Source: Dictyostelium discoideum
Taxonomy: Eukaryota
Assembly: GCA_000004695.1 (NCBI GenBank)
Contig: CM000150.2
Span: forward strand, 960,001-1,024,000
Direction of reading: 5' to 3'
Length of the DNA stretch: 64,000 nucleotides
Part shown: positions 14,099 through 34,469 of the stretch, piece after piece
How positions within the stretch are numbered: the stretch's first letter is position 1
Layout: each line of letters starts with the position of its first letter
Translations under genes and position numbers: made by a program
Notes under the pieces: generated by a model
Told to the model about the DNA's origin: nothing
Seen by the model: only the letters and a program-made list of their open reading frames with translations
The model's database searches: none

Positions 14099-16591
14099 AT
14101 GGAAGAAAATTTAATATCATGGATTTTAAAAGAAGGTGAAGATATTTTTATTAGAGAAAGAATAATAAAATCAATAAAAAAGATATCAGATAGTGGTATA
14201 CATATTACAATTGAATCACTTTTAAAATTTTTAAATAAAAAATCAAAAACCATTTTTTTAAATGAAAAAGAAATTGATTTTAAAGAATCATTAAAATTAG
14301 AAATTGAAAATAATGAATTATTAAGTCAGTTACAATCATTGTTTGAAATGTATGAAAATATAAATACAAATATAATTTGTTGTAATTTTGTTTATAATCG
14401 CACACATTTAATATTTAAAAAACATATTAAACAAGTAAACAATGGTTTCAATTCAAAAAATCGTACCACTGAAAATAGTCAAATGAAAACAGAAATGTTG
14501 GATTCAAAATCCAATATATTAGATTCTTGTTTTCATATTATTGATAACAATAAAAATTTGTTAATTAAAAAAGATACATTATTAAAAAATAATAACAATA
14601 ATAGTGGTAATTTATTTTTAAAAATTTGGAGAAATATAATTATTAGAAATGAAATTTTAAAATATATGAAATTATTTAAAATTCATCAATTTAAAATGAT
14701 ATTTTCATCAATTTCCAAATTGGATGCATACCCTTTTAAAGAATATCTATATAATGTACAATTGGAAATTGGTGGTGGTGAAAGAAATAATGAAGTTTTC
14801 AATTACCAACATGAAACAATGGAAATAAATGATTATTTAGAAAATAATTTACCAGATTCAATATCAGTATTGAATATTATTGATTTAAATAAAGAATTTA
14901 GTAATGGTTATTGTAGATATATCAGACCTTCGTCAATACCTTGTTCTGTAAAAGTATTGAACTTTATAAAACAATCTGACTACTTAAAATCAACAAAATT
15001 TTGTAACTTGATCCAATTTAAAAATAATAAAATCATTGATAATAGTAGTAATAATAATAATAATAATAATAATGTATTTTTAGAGAATGAAAAGAGTGCA
15101 TATGTAATAAGTAATAGTGAACAATTGATACCTTATGGAGTTGATTATGTGAATTATGAATTTAATTTAGAGGAAAGATCATTTAGCTTTATAACATTTA
15201 ATAATTTACCAAACACTGTAAAAACATTAGAAATTAAAAGAAAGTTACCATCGAAATTGTCTTTGGATTTTTATGAAGACTCAATATGTTTATTACCAAA
15301 TACAATTAAGGAATTATCATTTGATTTGGTATCAATTTTAAGACCAAATTTTTTACCAGAATCAATCACTGAATTATATTTAGGTAATGCACATAATGTT
15401 TATACAAATGATGAATGTTTGATTGAAAAAGGTATATTACCACCACAATTGAGAAAACTTAATCTTGGTGGATATTCAAATGAAATTAGAGAGGGTATAT
15501 TACCACCAACACTCACAAGTTTAACATTATGTACTACCTATAAAAAACCAATTAAACCAGGTTGTTTACCACAATCTTTACAATATCTTTCTTTTCAAGG
15601 TGATGTTGTTACTGCTACTAATCAAAAGAGTAGTAAGGATGACGAATTTTCAAATAGCGAATCATCATTTTCAATTTCATCATTATTTTCAATAGTTAAT
15701 AATTTAATATTTAATTATAATTTAAAACTACAATACGAGTTCCTTATTGAAGGTTCAATTCCAATTGGGCTAAAAACATTAAAACTTTCAAGGAATCAAC
15801 CTTATCAAGATATTCTTGTCAAAGGTATACTAACACCATCTCATAGCTCTTTAACAAGTATTTCAATATTTGATTTTAAACCACTCCAACTTCATGGTGA
15901 AAGTGTATCAAGTATGAATCAAAAGAATAAAGAAAAACTTCAAAAATTAAAAACACAATTTTTTATACCATCATCTGTAAAAAAGTTTGTTGGCTCAATT
16001 GATGATTATTGCCATCCAGAAATAATACGATTTTTACCATTTACAAAGGTTAAATTCTTTAGCTTCAATCCACAATTCCAAGAGTTTTCAAAAAGTGTTA
16101 AATCTCTTTATTTTAAATATATTTTAAATTTTAACCCAACAGCATGGCCATCAAACGCAGTTACATCTCTTACTTTAGACGGTCATAATATAGATGGTTT
16201 AGGTTTCTTTCCACAGTTTTTAACATTTTTAGATTTAACAAATGATATCTTTTTCTCAATGAGTAATGTACCACTTGATACCTTTTTTCCCTGTTTGAAA
16301 ACCTTAATATTAAGTAACTTGTTTCATGATGAAATTGATATTGAATCTTCATTTCCAAATCTAATAACCCTTGTTGTTGGAAATGCAACACCCAAATTAG
16401 TTTTACCCACAACAACAACAACAACAACAACAACAACAACAACAACTAATTTGAAAGAAATTATTGTATTCAACACAAATATCCAATTTATAAATGATAA
16501 TATATTAAAACTTCAACCTTTTATAAAAATTTTTAATCATTCTATAAAAAAAAAGAATTTAAAGAATTTATTTTTATCAAAAATTAAATAA
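14099..16591 (+). CDS. FNIP-repeat-containing protein (Dictyostelium FNIP / LRR-like repeat family), paralogue B; intronless
   Basis: 830-aa ORF. It carries the FLKIWRNIIIRNEILKYM motif. There are many about 22-aa repeats of the form LP-x-(S/T)-(I/L)-(K/T)-x-L-x-F, for example LPNTVKTLEI, LPNTIKELSF, LPPQLRKLNL, LPPTLTSLTL and LPQSLQYLSF. A (ACA)n poly-Thr tract lies near the C-terminus. Confidence 0.8.
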   Translation: MEENLISWILKEGEDIFIRERIIKSIKKISDSGIHITIESLLKFLNKKSKTIFLNEKEIDFKESLKLEIENNELLSQLQSLFEMYENINTNIICCNFVYNRTHLIFKKHIKQVNNGFNSKNRTTENSQMKTEMLDSKSNILDSCFHIIDNNKNLLIKKDTLLKNNNNNSGNLFLKIWRNIIIRNEILKYMKLFKIHQFKMIFSSISKLDAYPFKEYLYNVQLEIGGGERNNEVFNYQHETMEINDYLENNLPDSISVLNIIDLNKEFSNGYCRYIRPSSIPCSVKVLNFIKQSDYLKSTKFCNLIQFKNNKIIDNSSNNNNNNNNVFLENEKSAYVISNSEQLIPYGVDYVNYEFNLEERSFSFITFNNLPNTVKTLEIKRKLPSKLSLDFYEDSICLLPNTIKELSFDLVSILRPNFLPESITELYLGNAHNVYTNDECLIEKGILPPQLRKLNLGGYSNEIREGILPPTLTSLTLCTTYKKPIKPGCLPQSLQYLSFQGDVVTATNQKSSKDDEFSNSESSFSISSLFSIVNNLIFNYNLKLQYEFLIEGSIPIGLKTLKLSRNQPYQDILVKGILTPSHSSLTSISIFDFKPLQLHGESVSSMNQKNKEKLQKLKTQFFIPSSVKKFVGSIDDYCHPEIIRFLPFTKVKFFSFNPQFQEFSKSVKSLYFKYILNFNPTAWPSNAVTSLTLDGHNIDGLGFFPQFLTFLDLTNDIFFSMSNVPLDTFFPCLKTLILSNLFHDEIDIESSFPNLITLVVGNATPKLVLPTTTTTTTTTTTTTNLKEIIVFNTNIQFINDNILKLQPFIKIFNHSIKKKNLKNLFLSKIK

Positions 16592-32498: not shown

Positions 32499-34469
32499 TT
32501 AATATCTATTTAAATGTAATGAACCATTTAAAACTTTAATATAATGATAAAAACGATTAATATCAATTTTATAAAGGAATTTAAAATTACTATTAAAACA
32601 AGATAACATTGTTATTGATTTTGGTAATGATTCAATTATTGGACAACCAGAACCAACTGAAATTGATTTTATGGATGATGGTAAACTTGATTCATTTAAA
32701 ATTTGAGTATAATTTATACCAAAAGAGATTGATTGTAAATTTGAAGGTAAATTAATTGAATATAAAATTTGATTATACTTTTCACCCAATCGAATTGATT
32801 CCAATCTATCTGGTAAAATATTTGAACTATTATTAAATACTTGATCATAACAAGCACCAAATTTAATTGATTTTAATTTTTTACTTGGAAGTGTACCCCT
32901 TGGTAATTGTTTATTAAAACGGTATCCAAATTCCAAATATTCAATACTAGATGGAAGAGAACCAACCAATATCTCTCTATTGAAATTAAATCCAAATATT
33001 AATGATTCCAAAGAATTTGGAAGTGCGCCTAATTCAATTGGTTGGTCGAAATAATAACCAAATTCAATTGATTTCACTGAGTCTGGTATGAAACCAGGTT
33101 CGATAATTTGATCGAAATAATGATTTAATTTTAGCTTTCTAACTGATTTAGGAATTTCACCGAAATTGAAATTATCACAAATTAACTCTTCCAATGATTC
33201 TGGTAAAATATTTGTAGTACCACCACCACCATCATCATCCTCTTGTAATACAGATTGGTTGAAATCTAAACCAAACTGAATTACTTTTACTGATTTTGGA
33301 ATTACATCTTTTTCAATTACCTTATTAAAATCGTGGCCAAATTTTAAGGATGTTAAAGATTCAGGTAACGATCCTTTAACCAATGGTGTATTAAATTCAT
33401 ACCCAAATTGAATATGTTTCAATGATGTTGGTAATACATTTGGTTCAATTGGTTTATTGTAGGAATGGGATAATTCTAAATTTTCAATAGAGTTTGGTAA
33501 AATTCCTTTGGTGAATTGGTGATTGTAATTATGTCTAAAATAAAGTTTCTTTAAATTTAAAGGTAATGAACCAACTGATAATTTTTGATTAAAGTAACCA
33601 AATGTTAAATTCAATAATGATTGTGGTAAAATTCCAGGTGGTAAATCCATTTTAAAATGGCCATCGAATGCAAGTGTTTCCAACCCCTCTGGTAAAGAAT
33701 TTTTTAAAATCTCTTGATTGAATGCGTGTCCGAAATAAAGCTCTTTTAAAGTGGCTGGTAATGTATTACATTCTATGGTACTGTTGAATGTGTCTCCCAA
33801 TTTCAATACTTCCAAACCGTGTGGGAGAACACCCACTTTCAATTCTTGGGAATATTTCCACCCAAATTGTAAATATTTCAATTTTTCCGGTAGTACACTT
33901 CCCGACCCAATTGGAAGGTCATAATATTTGCCAAAGGTTAACGAAGTTATTGAGTTTGGGAGTGCTCCCTCTTCAATGACCTGGTTCCACGAGTCACCAA
34001 ATTTCAAAATGGCCAAATTCGATGGCAGCATTCCTTGGGTAATCGGTTGATTAAAGTAGAAACCAAATGAAAGACTTGTAATATTTTCAGAGATTGAGCC
34101 AATTCTAATCATTTGATTGAATCTAAAATCGAAGTTTAATGATGATATAGACGATGGTATTTGTGATGGTACAACTTTATCATATTCATATTTTTCACTA
34201 TCCACATCATATATTAAATCCTTTAAATAATCTTTATATTTAAATCCTTCCAATGATTCAACATTAAACTTTCTTTGATAAAAATGAATTGAATATAAAC
34301 GAAGATGATAAAAAATTTCACCTCTAATAACTTTATTTCTCCAAACTTTAAAAAAAACTTTTTCATTTTCATTACAATTATTTAATGGTATAATTCTTTG
34401 TATTGGTTCTTTAATTAATGAATAATCTTTTAATATTTTTTTTGTTAAATTATTAATTATAATTTCCAT
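32499..34469 (-). CDS. FNIP-repeat-containing protein, paralogue E (inverted orientation; classical FNIP repeats); intronless
   Basis: 656-aa ORF. It carries the VFFKVWRNKVIRGEIFYHL motif. About 20 tandem ~22-aa repeats follow the pattern F(G)xxFNQ(x)(I/L)xxGxLPxSLxxLxFG. Confidence 0.85.
   Translation of the reverse strand: MEIIINNLTKKILKDYSLIKEPIQRIIPLNNCNENEKVFFKVWRNKVIRGEIFYHLRLYSIHFYQRKFNVESLEGFKYKDYLKDLIYDVDSEKYEYDKVVPSQIPSSISSLNFDFRFNQMIRIGSISENITSLSFGFYFNQPITQGMLPSNLAILKFGDSWNQVIEEGALPNSITSLTFGKYYDLPIGSGSVLPEKLKYLQFGWKYSQELKVGVLPHGLEVLKLGDTFNSTIECNTLPATLKELYFGHAFNQEILKNSLPEGLETLAFDGHFKMDLPPGILPQSLLNLTFGYFNQKLSVGSLPLNLKKLYFRHNYNHQFTKGILPNSIENLELSHSYNKPIEPNVLPTSLKHIQFGYEFNTPLVKGSLPESLTSLKFGHDFNKVIEKDVIPKSVKVIQFGLDFNQSVLQEDDDGGGGTTNILPESLEELICDNFNFGEIPKSVRKLKLNHYFDQIIEPGFIPDSVKSIEFGYYFDQPIELGALPNSLESLIFGFNFNREILVGSLPSSIEYLEFGYRFNKQLPRGTLPSKKLKSIKFGACYDQVFNNSSNILPDRLESIRLGEKYNQILYSINLPSNLQSISFGINYTQILNESSLPSSIKSISVGSGCPIIESLPKSITMLSCFNSNFKFLYKIDINRFYHYIKVLNGSLHLNRY

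What the first reader, a model, noticed from the sequence alone, without database searches (positions are those of the whole stretch)
14099..34469. Cluster of four FNIP-repeat paralogues showing intron presence/absence differences
Three same-strand genes (14099-16591, 17722-20295, 20835-23272) and one inverted gene (32499-34469) all carry the (F/L)FK(I/V)WRN motif followed by dozens of LP-x-S/T-L-x-x-L-x-F(G) repeats. Paralogues C and D have a phase-1 intron after a conserved N-terminal module (W-I/L-L...SD/N-G-L/I-H/F-I-S/T-I-E/D-S-L). Paralogue B encodes the same module without an intron. Paralogue E lacks the module. This is a locally expanding, fast-diverging family, and its function is poorly understood.
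Basis: seen in the sequence. Interest (0 to 1): 0.5.

Follow-up and report, generated by a model that had tools for sequence, protein, structure and literature searches.

The report
Three old FNIP-repeat paralogues plus a bystander
This stretch of Dictyostelium discoideum chromosome 1 holds three neighbouring, anciently duplicated genes of a divergent branch of the huge FNIP leucine-rich-repeat family plus one unrelated ordinary FNIP gene; the intron difference between them is real, but the finding is ordinary gene-family evolution.

Summary
There are four intact genes at the stated coordinates. All four pass Pfam FNIP, and each carries the K[IV]WRN motif (4 seen, 0.045 expected). C and D have a phase-1 intron after a shared N-terminal module, B encodes the module without an intron, and E lacks the module.

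- The window is D. discoideum AX4 chromosome 1, and gene D is DDB_G0268362.
- B, C and D are an old tandem array, syntenic in four species of the discoideum complex. D. citrinum and D. dimigraforme keep a second B copy that D. discoideum has lost, so the array is not expanding here.
- E is a canonical FNIP gene with about 23 regular repeats. It falls outside the B/C/D clade and six unrelated genes lie between.
- B to D have only about 8 to 14 degenerate repeats, not dozens.
- Only B evolves fast (dN/dS 0.45 to 0.85). C and D match a neighbouring lineage-specific gene.
- The WRN motif is a two-helix N-terminal cap on the repeat solenoid, shared by at least 44 dictyostelid FNIP protein clusters. 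It is not an F-box.
- The extra N-terminal region of B to D is an orphan helical domain.
- Whether the intron was gained or lost cannot be resolved.

Function is probably cytosolic protein binding, with no known ligand.

The parts
14099..16591 (+). Gene B. Single-exon FNIP-family gene of 830 aa, with the N-terminal module, helical linker, WRN cap and degenerate repeats in one ORF.
   Evidence: ORF. Pfam FNIP 5e-16. An 830-aa gene call in a second D. discoideum assembly. Intronless orthologues in three other species.
14099..14239 (+). N-terminal module of B (aa 1-47, W-I-L ... SDSGIHITIESL), predicted as three short helices.
   Evidence: Alignments A3 and A6. AF2 helices 3-9, 16-31 and 38-47 with pLDDT 85-92.
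14621..14635 (+). KIWRN motif of B, the core of the WRN cap.
17722..17836 (+). Gene C exon 1, encoding the N-terminal module only (38 codons plus 1 base).
   Evidence: The D. citrinum orthologue P0001 is annotated with the same splice.
17837..17914 (+). Gene C intron: 78 nt, phase 1, GTAAGT...AAAAAG, 6% G+C.
   Evidence: A phase-1 intron lies at the same place in the C orthologues of four species.
17915..20295 (+). Gene C exon 2: helical linker, poly-N tract, WRN cap, degenerate FNIP repeats and C-terminal cap. The whole protein is 831 aa.
18460..18474 (+). KIWRN motif of C.
20835..20979 (+). Gene D (DDB_G0268362) exon 1, encoding the N-terminal module plus 10 further codons.
   Evidence: The spliced product is identical to P0025 / Q55G24.
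20980..21101 (+). Gene D intron: 122 nt, phase 1, GTAAGT...TTTTAG, 5% G+C, with a long poly(A) run.
21102..23272 (+). Gene D exon 2. The whole protein is 771 aa.
21485..21499 (+). KIWRN motif of D.
32499..34469 (-). Gene E. Canonical single-exon FNIP/FGxxFN repeat protein of 656 aa: WRN cap, then about 23 regular 22-residue repeats, with no N-terminal module. It is not part of the tandem array.
34335..34349 (-). KVWRN motif of E.

Best explanation
Window 14.1-23.3 kb of D. discoideum AX4 chromosome 1 carries three head-to-tail genes, B, C and D (D is DDB_G0268362). [quoted passage not shown] Gene E, 9 kb further on and on the other strand, is an unrelated canonical FNIP gene that happens to lie nearby.

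Architecture, partly shown and partly modelled:
1. In B to D only, a roughly 45-residue three-helix N-terminal module followed by a roughly 120-residue helical linker. Neither has a detectable relative of known fold.
2. A roughly 65-residue 'WRN' region: two long helices and one short helix directly abutting the first repeat strand. It acts as the N-terminal cap of the solenoid and is shared by dozens of dictyostelid FNIP proteins.
3. The repeat solenoid, regular in E and degenerate in B to D.
4. A conserved C-terminal cap motif (VFNxNxxFL...IIKI).

Most likely mode of action (inferred, not shown): these are soluble cytosolic scaffolds. They bind another protein on the concave sheet of the solenoid, as LRR proteins generally do. 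The extra helical N-terminus of B to D would give a second interaction or oligomerisation surface. No enzymatic or ubiquitin-ligase-recruiting domain is detectable.

Evolution (shown):
- The B/C/D split predates the divergence of D. discoideum, D. cf. discoideum, D. citrinum and D. dimigraforme.
- A B2 copy was lost in the discoideum lineage.
- B is under weak constraint, and C and D are under ordinary purifying selection.
- The phase-1 intron after the module is fixed in every C and D orthologue and absent from every B orthologue.
- Whether that intron was lost from B or gained in the C/D ancestor is unresolved.
For: Family and models:
- Pfam FNIP in all four.
- Gene models confirmed by the identical protein DDB_G0268362 and by matching gene-call lengths.

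Synteny and tree:
- Synteny and copy number in four species.
- NJ tree with 200 bootstraps: C+D 100%, B1+B2 100%, B+G 86%, whole clade against canonical FNIPs 100%.

Rates and intron:
- dN/dS values.
- Intron phase, length and position in 8 orthologues.

WRN cap:
- The WRN region sits at the N-terminus of 44 cluster representatives found by an exhaustive HMMER search.
- AF2 model of E residues 27-201: pLDDT 89.8, helices 4-16, 18-34 and 42-46, then LRR strands.
- A PDB sequence-profile search hits Crov588 at 7e-65.

N-terminal region of B:
- AF2 gives an all-helical model at pLDDT 75.
- No Pfam match.

Literature: LRR proteins typically bind ligands on the concave face, and the function of FNIP proteins is little known (PMC9525666).
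Against: - No ligand, expression or localisation data could be obtained, so 'protein-binding scaffold' rests on the general behaviour of LRR proteins.
- The solenoids of B to D were not modelled. Only 8-14 repeats are recognisable and the FGxxFN spine is missing, so their fold could depart from the Crov structures.
- The cap role of the WRN helices is read from secondary structure and confidence values, not from inspected contacts.
- The NJ tree rests on repeat-rich sequence and is weak at depth. Some nodes have 44-66% support.
- B's dN/dS of 0.83-0.85 on the youngest branch could mean B is losing function.
Confidence: 0.8

Rival explanations
1. The intron was gained once in the common ancestor of C and D, and B keeps the original intronless state.
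For: - B and its closest relatives are all intronless between module and WRN motif. These are the B2 copies and the unlinked G cluster (P0026, P0029, P0030, G3).
- The more distant DDB_G0268570 (P0060) is also intronless there.
- C and D form a 100% clade.
- The intron is a pure insertion relative to B. The linker has the same length in B and D.
- The outgroup introns are in phase 2, not phase 1, so they may be different introns.
- Lost introns in Dictyostelium tend to lie far from the 5' end, whereas this one is 115-145 nt from the ATG (PMC4683709).
Against: - Two outgroup paralogues with the module, P0031 (DDB_G0290525-like) and P0071, have an intron in the same linker. In P0071 it lies at the same distance (13 residues) from the conserved GL as in C.
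- Independent gains at nearly one site would be a coincidence.
- Losses outnumber putative gains in D. discoideum, 441 against 40 (PMC4683709).
- No source sequence for the intron was found, and none was searched for beyond inspection.
Confidence: 0.45
2. The intron after the module is ancestral to all module-bearing FNIP genes. It was precisely lost in the B/G lineage, and separately in DDB_G0268570, by recombination with a reverse-transcribed mRNA.
For: - The intron occupies the same variable linker in C, D, P0031 and P0071.
- Splice sites demonstrably move in this family. The donor of C lies 10 codons upstream of that of D while the acceptor column is the same.
- Precise cDNA-mediated loss is the dominant mode of intron change in Dictyostelium (PMC4683709).
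Against: - The phase differs: 1 in C and D, 2 in P0031 and P0071.
- The scenario needs two losses plus a phase shift.
- The intron is 5'-proximal, the class least often lost.
- The position of P0060 within its clade has only 44% support.
Confidence: 0.45
3. The WRN region is a cryptic F-box. On this reading these proteins are substrate receptors of SCF ubiquitin ligases, like the F-box plus FNIP proteins of giant viruses.
For: - Many Megavirus FNIP proteins carry an N-terminal F-box (PMC9525666).
- Some non-Dictyostelium FNIP hits have F-box-like N-termini by eye (P0003, P0014).
- The WRN region sits exactly where an F-box would, and it is helical.
- The FNIP gene chtB gives a cheater phenotype that its authors liken to the chtA mutant (PMC3559258). 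From my own knowledge, not checked here, chtA encodes the F-box protein FbxA.
Against: - No Pfam F-box or F-box-like hit even at E of 10 or less. A genuine F-box gene in the same window scores 37 bits.
- Profile-profile comparison with an F-box alignment gave probability 0.2%.
- The model has two long helices plus a short one, not the three-helix F-box arrangement.
Confidence: 0.07
4. B is a decaying duplicate on its way to becoming a pseudogene and is no longer functional.
For: - dN/dS is 0.83-0.85 between D. discoideum and D. cf. discoideum.
- B has the fewest recognisable repeats and the weakest Pfam score.
- Its sister copy B2 has already been lost in this lineage.
Against: - An intact 830-aa ORF is kept in all four species.
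- dN/dS is 0.45-0.57 over longer distances.
- Sliding windows are all below 1 (0.22-0.78), with the WRN cap region the most constrained.
Confidence: 0.15

Closest known systems
FNIP / FGxxFN leucine-rich-repeat proteins (Pfam PF05725; solved structures Crov588, PDB 6nyr, and Crov539, PDB 7zal)
   Different: - B to D have degenerate, irregularly spaced repeats without the FG dipeptide.
- All four carry a WRN helical cap, which I have not seen described for the Crov proteins.
- B to D add an orphan N-terminal helical region of about 170 residues.
chtB (DDB_G0290617), the one Dictyostelium FNIP protein with a published phenotype in the papers I read (PMC3559258)
   Same: It belongs to the same repeat family and the same organism. 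It shows that a FNIP gene can affect social behaviour.
   Different: It lies on a different chromosome (chr 5). I made no sequence comparison with B to E, and no evidence ties B to E to cheating.
F-box plus FNIP proteins of Megavirus and Mimivirus
   Same: An N-terminal helical element is followed directly by FNIP repeats.
   Different: The WRN region fails every F-box test run here: Pfam, profile-profile comparison and fold search.
Birth-and-death tandem LRR gene arrays (for example plant NLR or F-box-LRR clusters). This comparison is from general knowledge.
   Same: Tandem paralogues show copy-number differences between close species and unequal constraint among copies.
   Different: Turnover is very slow here, with one loss in four species. 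There is no sign of positive selection on the repeats, and no effector or signalling domain.

Membership tests
FNIP repeat family (Pfam PF05725) | Score above the Pfam gathering threshold (21 bits) for PF05725 | tested here: met
   B 58.9 bits, C 124.9, D 88.6, E 435.8.
FNIP repeat family (Pfam PF05725) | Tandem units of about 22 residues with the hxxhxhxxxFNxxhxxxIPxx consensus | tested here: inconclusive
   Met for E: about 23 units, nearly all at 21-23-residue spacing. In B to D only 8-14 units are recognisable and the spacing is irregular (20-150 residues).
FGxxFN subclass of FNIP LRR proteins (Huyton et al. 2022) | FGxxFN motif giving the double phenylalanine spine | tested here: inconclusive
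   E has 12 strict FGxx[FYW][NDS] motifs. B, C and D have none. E is a member by this test, and B to D do not meet this feature.
FGxxFN subclass of FNIP LRR proteins (Huyton et al. 2022) | LRR solenoid fold closest to Crov588 and Crov539 | tested here: met
F-box proteins (SCF substrate receptors) | F-box sequence signature (PF00646 / PF12937) | tested here: not met
   No hit at E of 10 or less in the N-terminal regions of B to E. The positive control in the same window (60423-62453) scores 37 bits.
F-box proteins (SCF substrate receptors) | Three-helix F-box fold preceding the repeats | tested here: not met
F-box proteins (SCF substrate receptors) | Binding to Skp1 | not testable with these tools
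   Needs pull-down or complex modelling.
   B, C and D are adjacent and on the same strand. But B groups with an unlinked cluster (G) at 86% rather than with C and D. E lies outside the clade and is separated by six unrelated genes.

The most novel reading that the evidence does not exclude
The short AT-rich linker just after the N-terminal module may be a hot spot where spliceosomal introns arose independently in two paralogous lineages. One event would be in phase 1 in the C/D ancestor and the other in phase 2 in the DDB_G0290525 / P0071 lineage. That would be a rare, datable case of parallel intron gain in an intron-poor protist. It would be datable because the C/D intron is fixed in four closely related species and absent from their sister genes.
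Probability: 0.3. Interest if true: 0.5.

Novelty: new member of a known kind. Interest (0 to 1): 0.22.

Why it matters
The practical value is modest.
- It defines a compact, syntenic subfamily of the largest and least understood repeat family of Dictyostelium: N-terminal module, helical linker, WRN cap and degenerate FNIP repeats.
- It shows that the widespread WRN motif is a solenoid cap and not an F-box. This removes an attractive but unsupported functional guess.
- It offers a small, well-bracketed test case for intron gain against loss, with eight orthologues that carry the intron and at least ten relatives that lack it.
- It does not reveal a new kind of system.

Tried and rejected
**Searches that failed or gave little**
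- My first homology search, with full-length C, was swamped by the poly-N tract: 8000 candidates but only 7 hits. Repeating it with low-complexity runs removed worked.
- Exact look-ups of B, C and E found no record. Only D gave the source identity.
- A literature search for neighbouring DDB_G identifiers found nothing.

**Ideas tested and rejected**
- Low-complexity artefact: rejected. The motifs and alignments are specific, and the orthologues are conserved.

**Conclusions I revised**
- I first concluded that the intron was gained in C/D, because B, the G cluster and P0060 are intronless. I withdrew that when P0031 and P0071 proved to have an intron in the same linker.
- In sliding-window dN/dS, the only windows above 1 in C (codons 201-320) coincide with the poly-N tract. 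I discounted them as alignment noise.
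Full report
**Source and setting**

The window has about 21% G+C with long poly-N and poly-Q tracts. My spliced model of gene D is identical, residue for residue, to DDB_G0268362 / UniProt Q55G24 of Dictyostelium discoideum AX4, on a 4.92-Mb record that I take to be chromosome 1. A second D. discoideum assembly is 99.7% identical over 22.4 kb.

**Observation check**

- C has a GTAAGT donor one base into a codon and a 78-nt intron.
- D has the same arrangement with a 122-nt intron.
- B and E are uninterrupted.
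- The resulting proteins are 830, 831, 771 and 656 aa. These are exactly the lengths of the NCBI gene calls in the second assembly.
- The D. citrinum orthologue of C is annotated with the same splice.
- K[IV]WRN occurs four times in the six-frame translation, against 0.045 expected.
- All four proteins pass Pfam FNIP, and nothing else in the 64 kb matches a FNIP-unit HMM.
- The N-terminal module is present in B, C and D and absent from E.

The one overstatement is 'dozens of repeats'. E has about 23 regular 22-residue units, and B to D have only 8-14 recognisable, irregular ones with no FGxxFN motif.

**What the proteins look like**

Pairwise identities are B-C 33%, B-D 33%, C-D 38%, and E against the others 24-29%.

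WRN cap:
- An exhaustive HMMER search with the N-terminal 240 profile positions found 44 cluster representatives. Every one whose source I looked up is from the D. discoideum species complex.
- Most hits match only the WRN region, which lies at their extreme N-terminus. The WRN region is therefore a general hallmark of dictyostelid FNIP proteins.
- An AlphaFold model of E residues 27-201, built on a 45-sequence alignment, is confident (pLDDT 89.8). It shows two long helices and one short helix running straight into the LRR strands.
- I read the WRN helices as the N-terminal cap of the solenoid. That is an inference from the secondary structure and confidence values.

N-terminal region of B:
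- The first 262 residues of B model as all-helical (pLDDT 75). The module forms three short, confident helices.

C-terminus: a motif of the form VFNxNxxFL...IIKI is shared by B to E and by other FNIP proteins.

**F-box idea**

Giant-virus FNIP proteins are often fused to an F-box (PMC9525666), so I tested whether WRN is a cryptic F-box. It is not.
- There is no Pfam hit even at E of 10. A true F-box gene at 60423-62453 in this same window scores 37 bits.

**Evolution of the array**

The order RhoGEF-B-C-D-(213-aa gene on the minus strand) is kept in D. cf. discoideum. D. citrinum and D. dimigraforme have RhoGEF-B1-B2-C-D.

A neighbour-joining tree (567 columns, 200 bootstraps) gives:
- C+D 100%.
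- B1+B2 100%, with the two B2 copies together at 78%.
- The B clade sister to an unlinked 'G' cluster at 86%. The G cluster has at least four tandem genes in D. dimigraforme and one in wild D. discoideum strains.
- The whole B/C/D/G clade at 100% against canonical FNIP proteins, including E.

The triplet therefore predates these species, D. discoideum lost B2, and E is a bystander. FNIP is the most abundant Pfam domain in D. giganteum, with 419 proteins. On that basis, a fourth FNIP gene in 64 kb is not surprising.

**Rates**

dS is about 0.12 against D. cf. discoideum and 0.37-0.58 against D. citrinum and D. dimigraforme.

| Gene | dN/dS vs D. cf. discoideum | dN/dS vs D. citrinum / D. dimigraforme |
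|---|---|---|
| B | 0.83-0.85 | 0.45 / 0.57 |
| C | 0.50-0.52 | 0.24 / 0.28 |
| D | 0.19-0.20 | 0.28 / 0.23 |
| RhoGEF, last exon | 0.15 | 0.16 (D. citrinum only) |
| 213-aa neighbour | 0.31 | 0.29 (D. citrinum only) |

Only B stands out. All of its sliding windows stay below 1, so relaxed constraint is a simpler reading than an arms race.

**The intron**

- All eight C and D orthologues carry a phase-1 intron of 64-144 nt and 5-12% G+C at the same acceptor column. The donor of C lies 10 codons upstream of that of D.
- Every B, B2 and G gene that could be checked has module and WRN motif in one ORF. So does DDB_G0268570.
- That pattern first suggested a single gain in the C/D ancestor.
- However, two further module-bearing paralogues, P0031 (DDB_G0290525-like) and P0071, each have one intron in the same linker. 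It is in phase 2, and in P0071 it lies 13 residues from the conserved GL, exactly as in C.
- Two scenarios are now about equally parsimonious: an ancestral intron with two losses and a phase shift, or two independent gains.
- Published work finds losses far more common than gains in D. discoideum, but mostly away from the 5' end (PMC4683709).
- I leave the direction open.

**Mechanism and verdict**

The best-supported reading is that B to E are soluble LRR-type protein-binding scaffolds. This rests on the FNIP fold and on general knowledge of LRR proteins. B to D carry an extra orphan helical N-terminus. No catalytic or ligase-recruiting domain is detectable, and no ligand is known.

The genes are already in public annotation as hypothetical or FNIP proteins, and I found no paper that mentions them. 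The finding is real but ordinary: a slow birth-and-death tandem array in a very large family, with a genuine and as yet undirected intron presence/absence difference.

Noticed in passing
L002:3325-9200 and L003:9467-14892: D. citrinum and D. dimigraforme carry two B-type genes (B1, B2) where D. discoideum and D. cf. discoideum have one. The tree places the duplication before the species split, so the discoideum lineage lost B2. The B-C spacer in the window (16592-17721) is too short to hold a relic.
   Followed up: yes
L007:1-18442 (D. dimigraforme) and L006:6001-8049 (D. discoideum wild strain): There is a second, unlinked tandem cluster of module-bearing FNIP genes (the 'G' clade), with at least four copies in D. 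dimigraforme. It sits next to a DDE transposase gene (PF01609/PF13359). The D. discoideum member P0030 was recorded only from non-AX4 strains, so it may be a presence/absence polymorphism.
   Followed up: partly
L003:9467-12142: The NCBI annotation of D. dimigraforme splits the B1 orthologue into a 93-aa and a 713-aa gene across a poly-N tract. The ORF is in fact continuous for 891 codons, so this is probably an annotation artefact.
   Followed up: partly
L008:1501-3480; cluster 6: The AX4 model of DDB_G0290525 is 424 aa, while the same gene in three other D. discoideum strains is 623-635 aa. The AX4 model may be truncated, or the gene disrupted in AX4.
   Followed up: no
window 60423-62453 (+): A 676-aa ORF with a clear N-terminal F-box (Pfam 37 bits) and no FNIP repeats. 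It served as a positive control for F-box detection in this genome.
   Followed up: partly
window 20980-21101: The intron of gene D contains an uninterrupted poly(A) run of roughly 50 nt. Read through in frame, exon 1 would continue as a poly-lysine tail before a stop.
   Followed up: no
window 26925-28904 (+): A very long poly-Q and poly-N-rich ORF (659 aa from a TTG start, called as 725 aa in the second assembly). It has histidine and glutamine runs and a C-terminal cysteine-containing segment. No function was looked for.
   Followed up: no
window 16450-16591, 20150-20295, 23130-23272, 32499-32640: A shared C-terminal motif (VFNxNxxFL ... IIKI/IKV) ends B, C, D and E and many other dictyostelid FNIP proteins. 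It is probably the C-terminal cap of the solenoid.
   Followed up: partly
window 36194-36910, 43245-46160, 50098-51858, 52281-54444, 57729-59162: Other genes in the window by Pfam:
- CCCH plus RING finger protein
- Myb-domain protein
- nicotinate phosphoribosyltransferase
- NSUN5-like RNA methyltransferase, apparently in two ORFs and so probably containing an intron
- POT/PTR2 peptide transporter

No tRNA genes were found.
   Followed up: no
bioRxiv 10.64898/2026.03.01.708701: The D. giganteum genome preprint links the abundance of FNIP repeats to 'nutrient sensing'. This seems to confuse the FNIP repeat (an LRR class named after its residues) with folliculin-interacting proteins. That reading is my own.
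   Followed up: no
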